A DNA stretch of 64,000 bases from Vicinamibacteria bacterium (GTDB lineage Bacteria; Acidobacteriota; Vicinamibacteria; Fen-336; JAGNNV01), in the NCBI GenBank assembly GCA_031392925.1, contig JANMVV010000158.1, positions 8,760 to 72,759 on the forward strand. The letters are read 5' to 3'. The position numbers and the translations under genes were made by a program. The notes beneath the pieces were generated by a model. That model was not told the DNA's origin and made no database searches. It saw only the letters and a list, made by a program, of their open reading frames with translations. Positions within the stretch are counted from its first letter, which is position 1. The number at the start of each line of letters is the position of its first letter. Below are positions 2-6,878 of this stretch, piece after piece.

Positions 2-124
2 AGTGCCATCGGCTACTACCAGGGCGGCCTCGAGACCATGAAGGCCCCGGGACCCATCCGGGTGCGCGAGACCCTGTGCACCTGCGCAGGGGATGAAGCC
101 TGCGTCTTCGATCTCAGCTGGTAG
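2..124 (+). CDS. 3' end of an upstream gene (partial; hypothetical protein ending ...CAGDEACVFDLSW*)
   Basis: An open frame with high GC3 enters the window and stops at TAG 122-124. It overlaps the annotated 93 start of the next ORF, which argues for the 162 start instead. Confidence 0.35.
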   Translation, partial: SAIGYYQGGLETMKAPGPIRVRETLCTCAGDEACVFDLSW

Positions 125-161
125 CCCCCCCGTTCTCTCTCGCTCAGGAGCCAAAACCCCC

Positions 162-3100
162 ATGCATCGCCGATTCCTCCCTTCTGCTGTCGTGGCCCTG
201 GGCCTCGCCACCGCGCCCTCGGCCTTCGCCCAGCCTTACGAGGCCGCGGCCTTCAACGCGCTTCAATACCGCGTCGTCGGACCCAATCGCGGCGGGCGTT
301 CGCTCTGCTCCACCGGGTCGGCTCAGCGGCCGCTCGAGTACTACTTCGGCGCAGTGGGCGGCGGTCTGTGGAAAACCACCGACGGCGGCCTCAACTGGAA
401 GCCGGTCACGGACGGCCAGATCAAGTCCTCCTCCGTGGGCTCGTGCGCGGTCGCGGAGTCCAATCCCGATGTCGTCTGGATCGGCATGGGCGAGACCCAG
501 TTCCGCGGGAACATCATGCAGGGCGACGGGCTATACAAGTCCGAGGACGCGGGCAAGACCTGGAGGCACTCCGGCCTCGGGCAGATACAGGCGTTCGCGC
601 GGGTGCGCGTTCATCCCACGAATTCCGACATCGTTTATGTGGCCGCGTTCGGCAGGCCCTACGCGGAGAGCGAGGACCGCGGCATCTACAAGACCACCGA
701 CGGCGGCAAGATCTGGAAGAAGGTCCTCTACAAGAGCCCGAGGGCCTCCGGCGTCGACATCTCCATCGACAAGAAGAACCCCAACGTGATCTTCGCCTCG
801 CTGTGGGAGGCGTGGCGAACCCCGTGGAGCATGAATTCAGGCGGCCCGGACAGCGGCCTCTACAAGTCCACCGACGCGGGCGAGACGTGGAGCGACATCA
901 CGCGGAATCCCGGACTGCCCGCCGGTGTCGTCGGCAAGATCGGCGTGTCGGTGTCGCCCGTCGATTCGAGCCGGGTCTTCGCCATGGTCGAGAACGAGAA
1001 CGGCGGCCTCTTCCGCTCCGATGACGCGGGTGGAACGTGGACGAAGATCAACGACGACCGCGCCCTTCGCCAGCGCGCCTTCTATTACACGCGCGTCTAC
1101 GCCGACACCCAGAACAAGGACCTCGTCTATGTCCTCAACGTGAACTTCCACAAGTCGGTGGACGGGGGCAAGACCTTCACCACCATCCGCCCGCCCCACG
1201 GCGACAACCACGACCTGTGGATCGCCCCGGGCGACAACAAACGCTTCATCGCAAGCAATGACGGCGGCGGCACCGTGACCACGAACGGCGGCGAGACCTT
1301 CACCGACCAGGACTACCCGACGGCGCAGCTCTATCACGTCATCACCACGAAGGACTTCAACTACCACGTCTGCGGAGCGCAGCAGGACAACACGACCCTG
1401 TGCGCGCCGTCGCGGCCCGATCCTCTGGCGCCGCCCCGCATGGGGCCGGGCGACCCGGGCAGCTGGTTCTACCAGGTGGGCGGGGGCGAAAGCGGTTACA
1501 TCGCTCCCTCCCCCACCAATCCCGACATCTTCTACGCGGGCAGCCAGGGCGCTCTGATCACGCGGTTCGATCGATCCACCGGCGCGCTTCGCGACGTCCA
1601 GATCTATCCGGAGTTCTTCTCCGGCATGCCCTCCAAGGACCTGAAGGAGCGCTGGCAGTGGACGTTTCCCATCGTCTTCGATCCTCTCGAACCGAACACG
1701 CTCTACGCGACGTCACAGCACCTCTGGAAGACCACGAACGAGGGCAAGACCTGGGAAATGATCAGCACCGACCTGACCCGCGCGGATCCGAAAACGCTCG
1801 GCGATTCCGGCGGCCCGATCACCCACGACATGAACGGCCCCGAGATCTACGCGACGATCTTTGCCGTCGCTCCCTCGCGCTTTGAGAAGGGCACGATCTG
1901 GACGGGGAGCGATGACGGGCTCGCCTTCATCACCCGCGACGGCGGCAGAAACTGGACGAACGTCACCCCCGCGGGGCTGCCCGAGTTCGCGCGCATCAGC
2001 ATCATCGAAGCCTCGCCGCACAAGGCCGGCACCGCGTACCTGTGCGCCAAGCGCTACCAGCTCGACGACCGGTCGCCCTACATCTACCGCACCGACGACT
2101 ACGGCAAGAGCTGGACGAAGATCGTGAACGGCATCGAGGCAGGCGCCTACGTGCACGCGGTGCGCGAGGATCCGAAGCGGGAAGGCCTGCTCTACGCGGG
2201 CACCGAGCACGGCGTGTACATCTCGTTCAACAACGGCGCCTCCTGGCAGCCGTTCAGCCAGAACCTGCCCGTTACCCAGATCTCCGACCTCGTGGTCGAA
2301 GAGAACGACCTCGTCATCGCCACCCACGGCCGGTCGATGTGGGTGATGGACGACATCGGCCCGGCGCGCCAGATGACCGCGCGGACCGCGGCCGCCTCCC
2401 TTCACGTCTTCACGCCGCGGGCCGCGGTCCGCGGCAACGGCCCGGTGCCCATCGACTTCATCCTGAAACAGCCGGCGGAGAGGGTGCAGGTCGAGATCCT
2501 CGATGGTAAGGGCGCGGTGGTCCGCTCCTTCATCGGAACACCCGAGGACGACAAGAAGAAGGCCGGCGACGGCGGCGATGATTTCTTCGGGCCACCCTCG
2601 GTCAAACCTCCCACGCGCAAGGCCGGGCTCAACCGATTCACCTGGGACCTCCGCTACCCCGGGCCGGAGACGTTCGAAGGAATGATCCTGTGGAGCGCGT
2701 CCTCCGCCGGGCCGCTGGCCATGCCCGGGATGTACTCGGCCAAAGTCACGGTGGGCCCCGAGACCGAGACCGTGCCGTTCGAAGTGAAGATCGATCCGCG
2801 GCTCAAGAACACCACGGTGGCCGACCTGCAGGAGCAGTTCGACCTGGCCATGCAGGTGCGCAACGCGACCTCCGCCGCGCACAGCACGGTCGCGAAGATC
2901 CGCGGGATCCGCAAGGACATCATGGACCGTGACGCCAAAGCGAAGAACAAGGCGTTCTCCGCCGACGCGGCGGTGGTGCTCGCGAAGCTCTCCACGGTGG
3001 AGGAGGATTTGTATCAGGTGAGGAACCGCACGGGCCAGGACCCCCTCAACTTCCCCATCAAGCTCGGCAACAAGCTCGGCGCGCTGCTGCGCGTGGTCTC

Positions 3101-3290
3101 GTCCGGCGACGGCAGGCCGAACGCCAGTTCGTACGACGTCTACAAGCTCCAGAAGAGTCAGCTCGACGCGATCATGGCGAAGTACGACGCGGTGATCACC
3201 GTCGATCTCCCCAGGATCAACAAGCGGCTCGAGGGCCACAAACTCGAACCCATCACGGTCAGCGGCGTGAAGCCGCCGGGCGTGCGGTAG
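162..3290 (+). CDS. Secreted BNR/Asp-box repeat beta-propeller protein (sortilin/Vps10- or GH74-like)
   Basis: It carries at least 10 S-x-D-x-G-x-T-W Asp-box motifs (TTDGGLNW, SEDAGKTW, TTDGGKIW, STDAGETW, SDDAGGTW, SVDGGKTF, TTNEGKTW, TRDGGRNW, TDDYGKSW). Met24 of the track ORF (MHRRFLPSAVVALGLATAPSAFA) is a signal peptide preceded by the AGGAG-like site caggag. Confidence 0.8.
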   Translation: MHRRFLPSAVVALGLATAPSAFAQPYEAAAFNALQYRVVGPNRGGRSLCSTGSAQRPLEYYFGAVGGGLWKTTDGGLNWKPVTDGQIKSSSVGSCAVAESNPDVVWIGMGETQFRGNIMQGDGLYKSEDAGKTWRHSGLGQIQAFARVRVHPTNSDIVYVAAFGRPYAESEDRGIYKTTDGGKIWKKVLYKSPRASGVDISIDKKNPNVIFASLWEAWRTPWSMNSGGPDSGLYKSTDAGETWSDITRNPGLPAGVVGKIGVSVSPVDSSRVFAMVENENGGLFRSDDAGGTWTKINDDRALRQRAFYYTRVYADTQNKDLVYVLNVNFHKSVDGGKTFTTIRPPHGDNHDLWIAPGDNKRFIASNDGGGTVTTNGGETFTDQDYPTAQLYHVITTKDFNYHVCGAQQDNTTLCAPSRPDPLAPPRMGPGDPGSWFYQVGGGESGYIAPSPTNPDIFYAGSQGALITRFDRSTGALRDVQIYPEFFSGMPSKDLKERWQWTFPIVFDPLEPNTLYATSQHLWKTTNEGKTWEMISTDLTRADPKTLGDSGGPITHDMNGPEIYATIFAVAPSRFEKGTIWTGSDDGLAFITRDGGRNWTNVTPAGLPEFARISIIEASPHKAGTAYLCAKRYQLDDRSPYIYRTDDYGKSWTKIVNGIEAGAYVHAVREDPKREGLLYAGTEHGVYISFNNGASWQPFSQNLPVTQISDLVVEENDLVIATHGRSMWVMDDIGPARQMTARTAAASLHVFTPRAAVRGNGPVPIDFILKQPAERVQVEILDGKGAVVRSFIGTPEDDKKKAGDGGDDFFGPPSVKPPTRKAGLNRFTWDLRYPGPETFEGMILWSASSAGPLAMPGMYSAKVTVGPETETVPFEVKIDPRLKNTTVADLQEQFDLAMQVRNATSAAHSTVAKIRGIRKDIMDRDAKAKNKAFSADAAVVLAKLSTVEEDLYQVRNRTGQDPLNFPIKLGNKLGALLRVVSSGDGRPNASSYDVYKLQKSQLDAIMAKYDAVITVDLPRINKRLEGHKLEPITVSGVKPPGVR

Positions 3291-3299
3291 AACCCTACG

Positions 3300-4793
3300 G
3301 TGAAGCTGAGCCTCGCGCCATCGCCGTCCTCCCGGGCCCCGCGGCTCCTGTGGGCGCTGGCCCTGATCGTCCTTCCCGTCCTCGCGCAATCTCCAGGGCT
3401 CGCGACACTGCCGAAGAAGCGGCCCAACATCGTGGTGGTGCTGCTCGACGATGCCGACGTCGAGATCACCGAGTCCATGCCGCGACTCCGCTCGATGTTC
3501 ATCGAGAAGGGCGTGCGCTTCACTTCGAATATCGCGAACACGCCCCTGTGCGGGCCCGCGCGGGCGGTCCTCCTGAGCGGCCAGTACGCCCACAACAACA
3601 AGGTGTACTACAACAACGGCGCGGAGGGCGGCTACCGCCCGTGGGCGAAGGGCGGCTACGACGAGAACAATCTCGCCACGAGGCTTCAGTCCCAGGGCTA
3701 TCGCACCGGCCTCTTCGGCAAGTACGTCAACGACTTTCCGCTGGGGCGGCCGGAGACCTTCGTGCCGAAGGGCTGGGACGATTTTCGAGCCGTGCTTTCG
3801 GACCGCGAGGCTCACAACAATCGGTTCACCCTCAATGAGAACGGGACGCTCAAGGTCTACGACGCCGGATCCGGCGGCTATCAGACCGATCTCTTGAGCC
3901 AGCGTCTCGGCTCGTTCCTCCGCGACCCCAAGAAGGGCGACACGCGCCCCTTTTTCGCCCTCCTTGCGGTGAGCGCGCCCCATATTCCTCCCGAGCCGGC
4001 GGAGCGCCATCTCGCCGCTTTCCCCGGCGAGAAGGCGCCGCGCAAGCCCTCCTTCGACGAGGCGGACCTGAGCGACAAACCGAAGGCCCTGCGCGAACAG
4101 GCGACGCCGATCACGAGGCAGCAGGCGGAGGAGATCGACGCGACCTACCGGTCGATGAAGCAGTCGCTCCTCTCGGTGGAAGACGCGGTCGAAGCGCTGT
4201 TCAAGACGCTCAACGATACCGGCGAAATCTCGCGCACTTATGTCTTCCTCACCTCCGACAACGGCTGGATGCGGGGCGAGCATCGGATCCCCGCGGAGAA
4301 ATACGCGCCCTACGAGGAATCGGTCCGGGTTCCACTGATGGCGCGCGGCCCGGGCGTGGCGGAAGGCCTGACCCTCGATCAGGTGGTCGGGCTGGTCGAC
4401 CTCGATCCGACCCTGCTCGACCTCGCGGGCGGCGCTTCCGCGAACGCGGCTGCCCGTGATGGCCGATCCCTCATGCCTCTCCTTCTTCTGAAGAAGGGCG
4501 AAAAGGTCTCCTGGCGCGAGTCGATGCTGATCGAGCACTTCGGCGGCGGCGCACCCTTTCGAGTGCGCGGATACTTCGGCCTGCGATCGAAGGAGGCTAC
4601 GTATGTCGAGTACGCGACGGGCGAGAAGGAGTACTACGACCTGGTCAAGGATCCCTTCCAGATGGAGAACACCGCCTCGCGACTCGATGGCCCGGCTCTC
4701 GCAGCCCTTCACGCGCGGGTCATGGCCCTCCAGGACTGCAGGGGCGCCGCCTGCCGGGCCGCCGAGGGAACCGCGACCCTTGCTGCTCGCTAG
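3300..4793 (+). CDS. Sulfatase family protein (arylsulfatase-like), secreted
   Basis: It has an N-terminal signal peptide and a C-x-P-x-R motif (PLCGPARAVLLSGQY) in a sulfatase/alkaline-phosphatase-like N-domain (VVVLLDDAD). It starts with GTG at 3300. Confidence 0.7.
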   Translation: MKLSLAPSPSSRAPRLLWALALIVLPVLAQSPGLATLPKKRPNIVVVLLDDADVEITESMPRLRSMFIEKGVRFTSNIANTPLCGPARAVLLSGQYAHNNKVYYNNGAEGGYRPWAKGGYDENNLATRLQSQGYRTGLFGKYVNDFPLGRPETFVPKGWDDFRAVLSDREAHNNRFTLNENGTLKVYDAGSGGYQTDLLSQRLGSFLRDPKKGDTRPFFALLAVSAPHIPPEPAERHLAAFPGEKAPRKPSFDEADLSDKPKALREQATPITRQQAEEIDATYRSMKQSLLSVEDAVEALFKTLNDTGEISRTYVFLTSDNGWMRGEHRIPAEKYAPYEESVRVPLMARGPGVAEGLTLDQVVGLVDLDPTLLDLAGGASANAAARDGRSLMPLLLLKKGEKVSWRESMLIEHFGGGAPFRVRGYFGLRSKEATYVEYATGEKEYYDLVKDPFQMENTASRLDGPALAALHARVMALQDCRGAACRAAEGTATLAAR

Positions 4794-4978
4794 TGTTCTG
4801 TCTCGTAAGTTCGCGACACATGGGACCGCCGATGCATCCCCGCGCGCTGCGTTGCTCGTCCCCCCGAGGGGAGGCTTCGCGCTCGTTGCCTATGCTGGAT
4901 ATGCAGCCTCCTCGGCGCCTTGCGACCGGGGCGCCTCGACGGTCGCATGTATCGCGGACTTACGAGACAGAACACTAG
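4790..4978. mobile_element. MITE-like nonautonomous element (IS630/Tc1-like features: TA target-site duplication (TSD), ~37-bp imperfect terminal inverted repeats (TIRs), no ORF)
   Basis: There is a perfect 20-bp TIR, CTAGTGTTCTGTCTCGTAAG...CTTACGAGACAGAACACTAG, that extends to ~39 bp with 3 mismatches. The core element 4793-4976 is flanked by TA on each side inside a CTAG. The two mirror ORFs of the track (4790..4975 and 4793..4978) are an artefact of this palindromy. Confidence 0.45.
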
Positions 4979-5544
4979 AAGCGTGCCGGGGTGCAGCTCA
5001 CCTGATAGCCCGGAGGGTTGAAGGCAGTCCCGAACTGGGTGAAGATGTCGTACTGCTCGCTCCAGGCGTTTGAGGTCTTGATGGCGATCTCGTCATGGGG
5101 GCCGCCGGTCTTGGCGCACACCCCCTTGTTGTCGCGCTCCACGATCCTGGCGACGCCCGCTGAATAGGCAGGCTCGTCGAGAACGAGGTTCCCCGGCCCG
5201 AACAGACTGGGTTGCTCCTCCTTCAGTCTATAGATCGCCTCGGAGATCATGGTTCTGAACTGCTCCGTGTTGTCCTGAACCACCGTGCAGCAGCCCCAGA
5301 CTCCGGGAGGATTGCCGGGCGGCTGCCCCTTGTCGCCCGGCTGCCCACACTCGGGCATGACCGGCAGGCCACAGGCGACGCCCTGGCCAAGGACCACTGG
5401 AGTGGGGGTGGGCGCGGGAGTCGGCGTCGGCGTAGCCACGACGACGACGGGAGTGGTCGTCGCCGCTACGGGCATCTGCCCCTCACCGCAGGCGAAAGAG
5501 AAGGCGGCAAAAGTGGCGAGCAGGGCAGGGGCTGGATTTCGCAT
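4975..5544 (-). CDS. Secreted/lipoprotein with Pro/Thr-rich linker and Cys-rich C-terminal domain (paralog A)
   Basis: It starts at MRNPAPALLATFAAFSFACGEG (a signal peptide, with the RBS-like aaagga 8 nt upstream). It has a (T/P) linker TTTPVVVVATPTPTPAPTPTP and a C..P..C...CC ...C.PARF domain homologous to the 15610..16143 protein. Confidence 0.7.
   Translation of the reverse strand: MRNPAPALLATFAAFSFACGEGQMPVAATTTPVVVVATPTPTPAPTPTPVVLGQGVACGLPVMPECGQPGDKGQPPGNPPGVWGCCTVVQDNTEQFRTMISEAIYRLKEEQPSLFGPGNLVLDEPAYSAGVARIVERDNKGVCAKTGGPHDEIAIKTSNAWSEQYDIFTQFGTAFNPPGYQVSCTPARF
5392..5460. repeat. Simple coding repeat encoding the (Pro-Thr/Ala) linker
   Basis: A GTCGGCGTCGGCGT-type short-period repeat lies on the plus strand and encodes the PTPTPAPTPTP linker. 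Confidence 0.6.
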
Positions 5545-5885
5545 TGAATCGTTCCTTTGGGGTGTCTTTAGAGGGCGGCGGATTCTAGCAAGGAGACCCA
5601 TGGCTAAACATATGTAAAGCTTCACTTAACGGACCCAAGGCGGGTCAGGGTCCGTCAGGACAGTCGGCAACCCCGGCTAGCGGTGCGGCGGGGCGGCGGT
5701 GGCTGGCGCGGCGGCCCGCTGGGTCCTGCGCCCCACGAGAATCCCCAGGGTCGTGAACGAAATGGCGATGATGATCCCCGCCAGGATTCCGAGGAGCGTT
5801 CGACTGAATCGAATCACCCCGCAACCTTACACCCACTGTTCATTGAGACTGAACATGCGCGCAGTCCGAATGCACGGGGACGCGC

Positions 5886-6878
5886 TTACCGCCCCTTCGT
5901 GATCGCCTCGAACCAGGTCTCAGCCATCAAGGCATAGCCCGCGGCCGAGGGGTGAATGTAATCGGCGAAGAGCTCGGACCATGCGAGGGGGGAGCGCTCG
6001 AACGCCGCGTACAGGTCGACCAGCGCCACGCCCTCTTCGGTCGCCATCTGCCGAATCGCCTCGTTCTGCGCCACGATCCAGCTGTTTCGCTGTGGTGAGG
6101 CCCTGAAGTCGTCCCCCAGATTGGTCATCAGCAGGGTGCCCACGAAAGCGAATCCTCCCGCCGCTTTCACCTTCTGAACCATCGAGCGCAGATTCGAGAT
6201 GGTGAAGCAGGGGGGCCGGCCGCAGAGGGGATCCGACCAGTCGTTCGTGCCGTAGAGAATGAGGGTGAACGCAGGACGGCCCGAGGCGAGGGAGGCGGCG
6301 ATCCGCGAGTCGCCGCGCTCCGAGCTCGAGGAGTCGATACCGTCGTTGATCACCTTCGCTAAGCCGAAGTGCGCGCTCAGCATTCTCTCGAGCTGACCGG
6401 TGTAGCCCTGACCATCGCCGGTGGCGGCCTGGCCGTCGGTGATGCTGTCTCCGAACGCGAGGTACACCCCGGCCGTCGCACCCGGACCGAGGGGAAGCGC
6501 GATCGGCACATTGAGATTGCCGGCGAGGGGTGGCGCCACCACCGAGCTCTCCGGGCCACGGTAGTATGGGGGAAGGGACGACGGATCGACGGAGAGGGCC
6601 TGGGCGGTCGGAAGAACATTGAGCGCCACTTCGCCGGTGAGAGGCGCGCCCTTTCCTGATGTGGAGCCAAACGACATCAGGGCGCCGGGAACCCGGATGC
6701 GCTCCGAGGCTTCGAGGAGGCCGTTCCGGTTCTCATCAAGGAACGCGGCGAAAGTGACAAGTCGGCTGGCCGCCGTGGGAGGCACCGCCCCTGCGGATCC
6801 TCCCCCACATCCGTAGGAAAGGAGGAGGGCGGCGGACATCGGGATACAGATCCTCATCGGACAGGACGGGCGAGTCAT
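5886..6878 (-). CDS. SGNH/GDSL hydrolase lipoprotein (putative O-acetyl esterase/transferase partner of AT3)
   Basis: It has GDSL blocks I (AFGDSITDG), III (GTND) and V (DYIHP). There is a lipobox-like site LLSYGCGG. Its start ATG overlaps the AT3 stop as ATGA; an alternative start is 6857. Confidence 0.75.
   Translation of the reverse strand: MTRPSCPMRICIPMSAALLLSYGCGGGSAGAVPPTAASRLVTFAAFLDENRNGLLEASERIRVPGALMSFGSTSGKGAPLTGEVALNVLPTAQALSVDPSSLPPYYRGPESSVVAPPLAGNLNVPIALPLGPGATAGVYLAFGDSITDGQAATGDGQGYTGQLERMLSAHFGLAKVINDGIDSSSSERGDSRIAASLASGRPAFTLILYGTNDWSDPLCGRPPCFTISNLRSMVQKVKAAGGFAFVGTLLMTNLGDDFRASPQRNSWIVAQNEAIRQMATEEGVALVDLYAAFERSPLAWSELFADYIHPSAAGYALMAETWFEAITKGR

What the first reader, a model, noticed from the sequence alone, without database searches (positions are those of the whole stretch)
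4790..4978. MITE-like element inserted into the TA of a CTAG where two convergent stop codons overlapped
This is a 189-bp non-coding unit.

- **Inverted repeats.** It has a perfect 20-bp TIR (CTAGTGTTCTGTCTCGTAAG / CTTACGAGACAGAACACTAG) that extends to ~39 bp with 3 mismatches.
- **Hallmarks.** The core GTGTTCTG...CAGAACAC is flanked by TA on both sides. A TA TSD is the hallmark of IS630/Tc1-mariner-derived MITEs.
- **Stop codons at the ends.** The sulfatase TAG (4791-4793) and the convergent lipoprotein TAG (complement of 4975-4977) are the two terminal CTAGs.
- **Empty site.** Removing the element and one TA copy regenerates a single CTAG in which the plus-strand TAG and the minus-strand TAG overlap by 2 nt. 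The insertion therefore preserved both stop codons.
- **Artefact.** The mirror-image 61-aa ORFs in the track come from this palindromy.

The internal ~110 bp contains further short hairpins (CCCC-gag-GGGG) and could also act as a bidirectional terminator or give rise to an sRNA.
Basis: seen in the sequence. Interest (0 to 1): 0.6.

Follow-up and report, generated by a model that had tools for sequence, protein, structure and literature searches.

The report
IS630-type MITE inserted at overlapping stop codons
A 183-bp non-coding mobile element of the IS630 transposon family landed exactly in the four bases (CTAG) where the stop codons of two facing genes overlapped, and left both stops intact; this is a clean example of a known kind of element, not a new kind.

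Summary
Window 4790-4978 is the strongest inverted repeat in the 64 kb: arms of 51 nt at 86%, with the first 21 nt perfect.

- **Empty site.** Three contigs from a sister species (flanks 80-90% identical) carry the same convergent sulfatase/lipoprotein pair. They read GCTCG-CTAG-AAGCG; the window reads GCTCG-C-TA-[183 bp]-TA-G-AAGCG. This is the predicted empty site: TA duplicated and both TAG stops regenerated.
- **Transposon link.** The terminus TAGTGTTCTGTCTCGTAAGTTCG is 23/23 identical to the right end of a 1,284-bp transposase-bearing IS in an Armatimonadota MAG. That IS has HTH + DDE_3 domains and scores 109.9 bits on NCBIfam's IS630 model (cut-off 100). Relatives with 86-90% identical transposases, in at least four insertion contexts, share the terminus (21/26).
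- **Why a stop codon.** CTAG is the published preferred IS630 target. It is about 9-fold depleted here, and 13 of 23 sites coincide with the TAG stop of a long ORF (some of these ORFs may be spurious), so landing on one is expected.

Not shown: copy number in the host (genome unavailable), a cognate transposase in the host (none in the window), the direction of the event by outgroup, and any terminator or RNA role.

Verdict: new member of a known kind; modest interest.

The parts
4793..4975 (.). MITE proper (183 bp), GTGTTCTG...CAGAACAC; non-coding
   Evidence: Present in the window and absent from the orthologous junction of L024/L025/L026. No protein homologues for its open frames. No Rfam match.
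4791..4792 (.). Left copy of the duplicated target TA
   Evidence: Filled site C-TA-[element]-TA-G against empty site C-TA-G. Because CTAG is palindromic and the termini are G...C, a duplication of 2 to 4 bp cannot be told apart from this one junction. TA is the IS630-family rule (PMC2170065).
4976..4977 (.). Right copy of the duplicated target TA
   Evidence: Same as the left copy.
4793..4840 (+). Left terminal inverted repeat
   Evidence: Inverted repeat I1. With the flanking TA, 23/23 identical to the right end of the IS630-type element in L003. Similarity to the IS ends runs to about 35 nt with one gap.
4928..4975 (-). Right terminal inverted repeat
   Evidence: Inverted repeat I1. Aligned with the IS termini in A3.
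4841..4927 (.). Central region with secondary hairpins; no similarity to the transposase-bearing IS interiors
   Evidence: Fold. BLAST of the element against all loci gave matches at the termini only.
4790..4793 (+). Left CTAG; TAG 4791-4793 is the sulfatase stop codon, rebuilt from target C-TA plus the first G of the element
   Evidence: ORF 3300-4793(+); Pfam Sulfatase.
4975..4978 (-). Right CTAG; the complement of 4975-4977 is the lipoprotein stop codon, rebuilt from the last C of the element plus target TA
   Evidence: ORF 4975-5625(-).
3300..4793 (+). Sulfatase gene (497 aa), upstream flank
   Evidence: Pfam PF00884 5.6e-41 and SGSH_C. The exact protein is on L008 and L009, which also carry the element.
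4975..5544 (-). Probable lipoprotein gene (189 aa), convergent flank; no Pfam or NCBIfam family
   Evidence: 84% identical to P0001 starting at Met28 of the ORF. The exact protein is on L029 and L030. No family match.

Best explanation
Window 4793-4975 is a 183-bp non-autonomous transposable element (a MITE) that carries the terminal inverted repeats of an IS630-family insertion sequence.

**Proposed history (inferred).** An IS630-type transposase supplied in trans bound the roughly 30-35-bp termini. It excised the element and joined its 3' ends to staggered positions at the TA of a CTAG. Repair duplicated the TA.

**Why both stops survive.** The CTAG was the site where the TAG stops of a sulfatase gene (+) and a lipoprotein gene (-) overlapped. 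The element begins with G and ends with C, so a full CTAG was rebuilt on each side and both stop codons survived. The insertion was therefore neutral for both proteins.

**Why a stop codon is not surprising.** CTAG is the classical preferred IS630 target. In this 65% G+C genome CTAG is rare, and more than half of the sites in the window coincide with a TAG stop.

**Shown here:** the filled and empty sites, the TA-flanked boundaries, the identity of the termini to a transposase-bearing IS630-type element, and the family assignment of that transposase.

**Inferred, not shown:** mobilisation in trans, the direction of the event (insertion rather than precise loss), and any present-day effect on transcription.
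For: 1. **Real, exceptional inverted repeat**.
2. **Empty site.** L024, L025 and L026 come from three sequencing runs. Their lipoprotein is 84% identical in protein, and their flanks are 80-90% identical in DNA. They read AGGGAACCGCGACCCTGGCCGCTCG-CTAG-AAGCGGGCC, with the two genes overlapping by 4 nt. The window has 185 extra bases (183 + TA) at exactly that point.
3. **Terminus identity.** The element's bases 2-24 are 23/23 identical to L003 3858-3880. That stretch is the end of a 1,284-bp unit encoding HTH_29/HTH_23 + DDE_3, which passes NCBIfam NF033545 IS630 (109.9 bits, cut-off 100). The L003 transposase is about 60% identical to PGAP-annotated IS630-family transposases.
4. **Shared terminus in the clade.** Transposases 86-90% identical to L003's (P0030, P0031) lie on contigs with at least four different flanks. 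All end in TTAGTGCTCTGTCTCGTAAATTCGGTGACGTATTT, which matches the window terminus at 21 of 26 positions. More distant annotated IS630 copies keep the pattern A-GTGnT......TCGTAAnTTCG.
5. **Published mechanism.** IS630-family elements insert at TA with a 2-bp duplication (PMC2170065). IS630 prefers the TA in 5'-CTAG-3' (Tenzen & Ohtsubo 1991, as cited there).
6. **Target distribution.** The window has 23 CTAG sites against about 206 expected from composition. Thirteen coincide with the TAG stop of an ORF of at least 150 aa, though some of those ORFs may be spurious.
7. **Relatives at gene ends.** The L004 mini-element sits directly on a TAG stop within a CTAG between convergent ORFs. The L013 solo terminus lies 3 nt after a TAG stop.
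Against: - Only one copy is seen: one in 64 kb, and none elsewhere in the genome, metagenome or viral collections at the exact-match level used.
- No IS630 transposase is encoded in the window, and the host genome is not available, so neither multi-copy status nor a cognate transposase in the host is shown.
- In L003 only the right end matches. Its left end is a diverged version (TAGTACATGATTTCATAAAT), so L003 is not the exact parent.
- The closest IS relatives are flanked by C-TAA...TAA-G rather than C-TA...TA-G.
- All four same-species assemblies carry the element, so there is no within-species polymorphism.
- More distant orthologues of the lipoprotein lack the sulfatase neighbour, so no outgroup polarises insertion against loss.
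Confidence: 0.88

Rival explanations
1. In-situ remnant. A full-length IS630-type element inserted at this CTAG and later lost its interior by deletion on the spot. On this view the 183 bp never transposed as a small element and is not a member of a MITE family.
For: Only one copy is known. The boundaries and the TA duplication would look identical.
Against: Both arms resemble the right end of the related IS, and they match each other for 51 nt, whereas the related IS have very different left and right ends. A simple internal deletion of such an IS would leave unlike ends. The interior shows no trace of transposase sequence. A parent IS with two identical ends cannot be excluded.
Confidence: 0.08
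2. Native structured spacer. The hairpin is an old, host-owned bidirectional terminator or sRNA locus between the two genes, and the sister species lost it by deletion.
For: Very stable hairpin on both strands. It lies between convergent genes. It is present in all four same-species assemblies.
Against: The presence/absence boundary falls exactly on a duplicated TA inside CTAG. The outer 23 nt are identical to the end of a transposase-bearing IS630 element in another MAG. There is no T-run terminator, no promoter consensus and no Rfam family. The orthologous spacers in L027 and L028 carry unrelated ordinary GC hairpins.
Confidence: 0.02
3. A MITE of another CTAG-targeting family (for example IS5-type, from my own knowledge of that family), with a 4-bp CTAG duplication.
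For: The junction alone cannot distinguish a 2-bp TA duplication from a 4-bp CTAG duplication, because the target is palindromic and the termini continue it.
Against: The terminus matches the end of an element whose transposase is IS630-family by Pfam DDE_3 and by NCBIfam above its cut-off. No IS5-type protein is associated with this terminus in any locus retrieved.
Confidence: 0.02

Closest known systems
RUP (repeat unit of pneumococcus) and IS630-Spn1
   Same: A short (107 bp) non-coding palindromic element whose terminal repeats match those of an IS630-family IS. It inserts at TA and is proposed to be mobilised in trans (PMC2229807).
   Different: Unrelated sequence. RUP has about 108 copies in one genome and 9-bp contiguous terminal repeats. 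Here there is one observed copy, 21-nt perfect (51-nt extended) arms and a high-G+C host of unidentified taxon.
IS630 (Shigella sonnei) and ISY100 (Synechocystis), IS630/Tc1/mariner family
   Same: Insertion at TA with a 2-bp duplication (PMC2170065). IS630 prefers the TA within 5'-CTAG-3' (Tenzen & Ohtsubo 1991, cited in PMC2170065), which is exactly the target used here.
   Different: Those are autonomous elements of about 1.0-1.2 kb. This one has no coding capacity. Its terminal sequence belongs to a different IS630 clade (the L003/L031/L036 type).
The 1,284-bp IS630-type element in Armatimonadota MAG JAWODS010000053.1 (L003 2595-3878) and its relatives L031-L037
   Same: The right terminus is identical (23/23) or near-identical (21/26) to both ends of the window element, and the ends are flanked by a TA-containing duplication between C and G.
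   Different: It encodes a transposase as two overlapping ORFs. Its left end is strongly diverged from its right end. Its flanks read C-TAA...TAA-G rather than C-TA...TA-G. There is no interior similarity to the MITE.
Correia/NEMIS elements of Neisseria
   Same: Palindromic elements of 100-155 bp with about 24-bp terminal repeats and TA at the termini, forming long stem-loops in transcripts (PMC2229807).
   Different: No sequence relation. Correia elements are highly repeated and have documented effects on transcripts; nothing of that kind is shown here.

Membership tests
IS630-family-derived MITE | Short, non-coding unit (well under about 500 bp, no transposase) | tested here: met
   183 bp. 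Its open frames have no homologues. No transposase similarity.
IS630-family-derived MITE | Terminal inverted repeats | tested here: met
   Arms of 51 nt at 86%, with the first 21 nt perfect.
IS630-family-derived MITE | Target-site duplication of TA, shown by filled versus empty site | tested here: met
   C-TA-[183 bp]-TA-G against C-TA-G in L024-L026. Caveat: a 2-4 bp duplication cannot be resolved at a palindromic CTAG.
IS630-family-derived MITE | Terminal repeats match those of a transposase-encoding IS630-family element | tested here: met
   23/23 to the L003 right end and 21/26 to L031-L037. The transposase has Pfam DDE_3 + HTH and scores 109.9 bits on NCBIfam NF033545 (cut-off 100).
IS630-family-derived MITE | Several copies in the host genome | tested here: inconclusive
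   One copy in the 64-kb window. The host genome is absent from the collections. Four same-species contigs all break inside the element, but these contigs are short anyway.
IS630-family-derived MITE | Cognate transposase present in the same genome | not testable with these tools
   None in the window. The rest of the genome is unavailable.
IS630-family-derived MITE | Transposase binds the termini and mobilises the element | not testable with these tools
   Needs experiment.
Intrinsic (rho-independent) terminator | Short G+C-rich hairpin followed by a T-run | tested here: not met
   0 terminator-like sites in 4500-5300 on either strand.
Described RNA family (Rfam 15) | Match to a covariance model | tested here: not met
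   No match at E <= 1 in 4000-6000.

The most novel reading that the evidence does not exclude
In G+C-rich genomes, IS630-type MITEs may be steered by their TA/CTAG specificity onto TAG stop codons. Their G...C termini rebuild the stop on each side, so gene ends, and especially overlapping convergent stops, would act as safe harbours. Once inserted, the 183-bp hairpin could give two convergent genes that had no spacer at all a bidirectional transcription barrier or RNA-stabilising 3' structure. That would make it an exapted insulator rather than a neutral passenger.
Probability: 0.2. Interest if true: 0.45.

Novelty: new member of a known kind. Interest (0 to 1): 0.3.

Why it matters
- **Illustration of mechanism.** The case shows clearly how target specificity makes a transposon insertion harmless. 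The element entered the only four bases shared by two genes and rebuilt both stop codons.
- **Annotation.** It explains two spurious 61-aa ORFs and why assemblies may break at this junction.
- **A new terminus linked to a large clade.** It ties a terminal-repeat sequence I have not seen described to a very abundant environmental IS630 clade (at least 8,000 proteins at E<1e-40).
- **A natural experiment.** The species with and without the 183-bp hairpin between the same convergent genes could be used to test whether such insertions act as bidirectional terminators.
- **Limits.** It does not change what is known about MITEs or IS630.

Tried and rejected
- **Exact-terminus scans.**
  - The genome collection gave 7 loci. 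Only L003 and L004 extend beyond the 17-mer seed; the rest are chance.
  - The metagenome collection gave 7 loci. L013 is a related solo terminus, L016 lies inside a coding ORF and is probably chance, and L010/L011/L015 are one unrelated sequence.
  - The viral collection gave 2 chance hits, and a degenerate terminus gave 0 hits.
- **Plasmid blastn** with the whole element: no match.
- **Rfam** at a permissive threshold: nothing.
- **Copies through gene calls.**
  - The 61-aa ORF against 5.8 billion proteins gave no hit at E <= 10.
  - The second open frame against 1.84 billion representatives gave one low-complexity hit (36% identity, 1,250-aa repeat protein), which I rejected as a copy.
- **Transposase in the window** by tblastn: none.
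- **Transposase relatives in viral contigs:** one locus at 67% identity (L038), not analysed further.
- **Outgroup polarity.** L027, L028 and L039-L042 have other neighbours, so they are uninformative.
- **Assembly breaks and excess substitutions as evidence for many copies.** L008 has 3 substitutions in 83 nt of element against 2 in 2,430 nt of flank. I judged this weak. The contigs are short at their other ends too. One variant (4817 C>T) simply restores arm pairing, so the window's C there looks like an ordinary point change.
- **First look-up of the 216-aa ORF** failed because the real gene starts at Met28.
- **Source organism:** not identified.

Full report
**1. The observation**

Window 4790-4978 reads CTAGTGTTCTGTCTCGTAAGT...ACTTACGAGACAGAACACTAG.

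- The repeat finder reports arms 4790-4840 and 4928-4978: 51 nt, 86% complementary, 87 nt apart. The first 21 nt are perfect, and the first 39 nt carry three mismatches.
- The 17-nt terminus occurs nowhere else in the window, even with three mismatches allowed. No shuffle gave two matches.
- A scan of the whole window shows this is by far its longest inverted repeat.
- Either strand folds into one long hairpin. As RNA the energies are -120.1 and -122.7 kcal/mol (z = -8.7 and -10.2); as DNA, z = -9.4.
- ORF 3300-4793(+) is a sulfatase (Pfam 5.6e-41) ending at TAG 4791-4793. ORF 4975-5625(-) ends at the complement of 4975-4977.
- Comparison with homologues puts the real start of the second gene at Met28 (window 5544). 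That gives a 189-aa protein with a lipoprotein-like signal and no Pfam or NCBIfam family.
- The two mirror 61-aa ORFs exist. They have no relatives among 5.8 billion proteins.

**2. The empty site**

Homologues of the downstream protein were found and their contigs retrieved.

- Three contigs from three sequencing runs (L024, L025, L026) carry a protein 84% identical to the window's. On each, a convergent gene starts 3 nt before that gene's end, a 4-nt overlap.
- The alignment and BLAST show that this convergent gene is the sulfatase orthologue. The flanks are 80-90% identical in DNA.
- Their junction is ...GCCGCTCG-CTAG-AAGCGG.... The window reads ...GCTGCTCG-C-TA-[GTGTTCTG...183 bp...CAGAACAC]-TA-G-AAGCG....
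- Removing the element and one TA from the window reproduces the sister junction exactly.
- CTAG is a palindrome and the element starts with G and ends with C. A duplication of 2, 3 or 4 bp therefore cannot be told apart from this junction alone.

**3. Same-species assemblies**

- Two metagenome contigs with the exact sulfatase (L008, L009; 99.8% identical to the window) run 83 and 67 nt into the element and stop.
- Two contigs with the exact lipoprotein (L029, L030) begin 42 nt inside its other end.
- The insertion is therefore present in four independent samples of this species, and no empty allele was seen.
- The breaks inside the element, and the excess of substitutions there (3 in 83 nt against 2 in 2,430 nt for L008), hint at a repeated sequence. 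I regard this as weak. The contigs are short at their other ends too. One variant simply restores pairing between the arms.

**4. Link to IS630**

- A scan of one genome per species for the 17-mer returned seven loci, most at chance level.
- In L003, an Armatimonadota MAG, the match extends to 23/23 bases (element bases 2-24) and is followed by TA.
- It lies 44 nt downstream of two overlapping ORFs with HTH_29/HTH_23 and DDE_3 domains.
- The DDE ORF scores 109.9 bits on NCBIfam NF033545 'IS630 family transposase', whose cut-off is 100. It is about 60% identical to PGAP-annotated IS630-family transposases on Mycobacterium, Rhodococcus, Streptomyces and Polaromonas plasmids.
- An independent search for inverted repeats around the transposase genes of L003 and L021 put their ends in the same register. 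The L003 unit is 2595-3878 (1,284 bp).
- The protein database holds at least 8,000 relatives at E<1e-40, mostly on contigs about the length of an IS.
- The closest relatives (P0030 at 90%, P0031 at 86%) lie on contigs with at least four different flanking sequences. All end in TTAGTGCTCTGTCTCGTAAATTCGGTGACGTATTT, which matches the window terminus at 21 of 26 positions.
- The alignment of termini (A3) shows that both arms of the window element resemble the right end of these IS out to about 35 nt. The IS left ends are a more diverged version of the same motif.
- No interior similarity and no transposase remnant is present in the element.

**5. Mechanism and why a stop codon**

- IS630-family and Tc1/mariner transposases cut out the element and join its 3' ends to 2-bp staggered positions at a TA, which is thereby duplicated (PMC2170065). 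IS630 itself prefers the TA within 5'-CTAG-3' (Tenzen & Ohtsubo 1991, cited there).
- The window has only 23 CTAG sites, against about 206 expected from base composition and about 60 from a Markov model. Thirteen of them coincide with the TAG stop of an ORF of at least 150 aa, though some of those ORFs may be spurious in this G+C-rich sequence.
- Landing on a stop codon is therefore what the target preference predicts. The G...C termini of the element rebuild CTAG on both sides, so both stops survive.
- Two relatives follow the same rule. A 57-bp mini-palindrome with the same terminus in a gammaproteobacterial MAG (L004) begins on the TAG stop, within a CTAG, of a 436-aa ORF that faces a convergent ORF. 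A solo terminus in L013 begins 3 nt after a TAG stop.

**6. What is not shown**

- Copy number in the host and the presence of a cognate transposase could not be tested.
  - The host genome is in none of the DNA collections.
  - Protein-based proxies found nothing.
- No outgroup retains the sulfatase/lipoprotein junction. Insertion rather than precise loss therefore rests on mechanism, not phylogeny.
- A terminator or sRNA role is unsupported. There is no T-run terminator, no promoter consensus and no Rfam family. A hairpin of -120 kcal/mol in both transcripts could still affect 3' ends, and that needs RNA data.

**7. Comparison and verdict**

- The closest described analogue is RUP with IS630-Spn1 in pneumococcus: a small palindromic element sharing terminal repeats with an IS630-family IS and inserting at TA (PMC2229807).
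- The features that define an IS630-derived MITE and that I could test are met: small size, no coding capacity, terminal inverted repeats, a TA duplication shown by filled against empty site, and termini shared with an IS630-family element.
- Multi-copy status and a cognate transposase in the host are untested.
- I file it as a new member of a known kind. Confidence is about 0.88 that it is an IS630-type non-autonomous element, and about 0.08 that it is an in-situ deletion remnant rather than a transposed MITE.
- Interest is modest. The overlapping-stop target is elegant but follows from known IS630 target preference and from where CTAG sites lie in this window.

Noticed in passing
L031-L037 and L003 (IS ends; e.g. 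L031 337-1630, L003 2592-3881): The closest transposase-bearing relatives are flanked, in at least four different insertion contexts, by C-TAA-[GTRCAT...GRGCAC]-TAA-G, not by the canonical C-TA...TA-G. L003 has TTA on the left and TAA on the right. Either this IS630 clade duplicates 3 bp at a CTAAG-like target, or its left end carries one extra A. The two readings predict the same empty site and could not be separated.
   Followed up: partly
L003 2869-2990; L031 615-736; L036 310-431: All three IS relatives (86-92% identical in DNA) keep the transposase split into a 102-aa HTH ORF and a DDE ORF in the +1 frame. The overlap contains a conserved T/C run: CTTTTTCCCCCTCAG in L003 and L031, CCTTTTCCCCCTCAG in L036. 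Reading ...GRPRTFSP then PQMVIEVKALACE across it would give a continuous transposase. Annotated relatives on plasmids (e.g. L019, 385 aa) are single ORFs. This suggests programmed frameshifting or transcriptional slippage rather than decay.
   Followed up: partly
L004 4379-4435: A 57-bp mini-palindrome in a gammaproteobacterial MAG: CTAGTGTTCTGTCTCGTAAGTT...ACTTGCGAGACAGGACAACTG. Its left 22 nt are identical to the window terminus. It starts on the TAG stop, within a CTAG, of ORF 3072-4382(+) and faces the convergent ORF 4466-5539(-). This may be a much smaller MITE of the same terminus family in another phylum.
   Followed up: partly
L013 942-974: A solo terminus (33 nt, 88% identical to the window's left end) begins 3 nt after the TAG stop of ORF 78-941. 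No partner arm was found. It may be a decayed copy.
   Followed up: partly
window, all 23 CTAG sites (list): CTAG is about 9-fold under-represented relative to base composition (23 against about 206; about 60 from a Markov model). Thirteen of the 23 sites coincide with the TAG stop of an ORF of at least 150 aa, though some of these ORFs may be spurious in this G+C-rich sequence.
   Followed up: yes
window 2360-2361: Two independent metagenome assemblies (L008, L009) both start at window 2360 and 2361, inside the BNR/sortilin-repeat gene 93-3290. Something at that position, perhaps a repeat or strain variation, also breaks assemblies. Not examined.
   Followed up: no
window 4790-4978, both strands: Two of the three frames on the + strand are open across the whole element, and the mirror ORF on the - strand is open too. 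This is typical of G+C-rich palindromes and invites false gene calls. No homologues were found.
   Followed up: yes
L032 right flank and L034 left flank: One IS copy appears to sit inside a tandem array of an approximately 50-bp unit (…GGACAGCCTTTGGAGTTTGGTAAACATCAACCAACCTCCCCGTGGCTAA…). L031 and L032 share a left flank but have different right flanks, as expected if assemblies join different IS copies.
   Followed up: no
window 4975-5544(-) and P0001-P0029: The downstream probable lipoprotein belongs to a small family (29 database clusters at E <= 1e-5) with no Pfam or NCBIfam model, seen mainly in metagenomes. In L041 and L042 two paralogues lie in tandem. In L039 and L040 the gene sits next to a GT87-type glycosyltransferase gene.
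   Followed up: no
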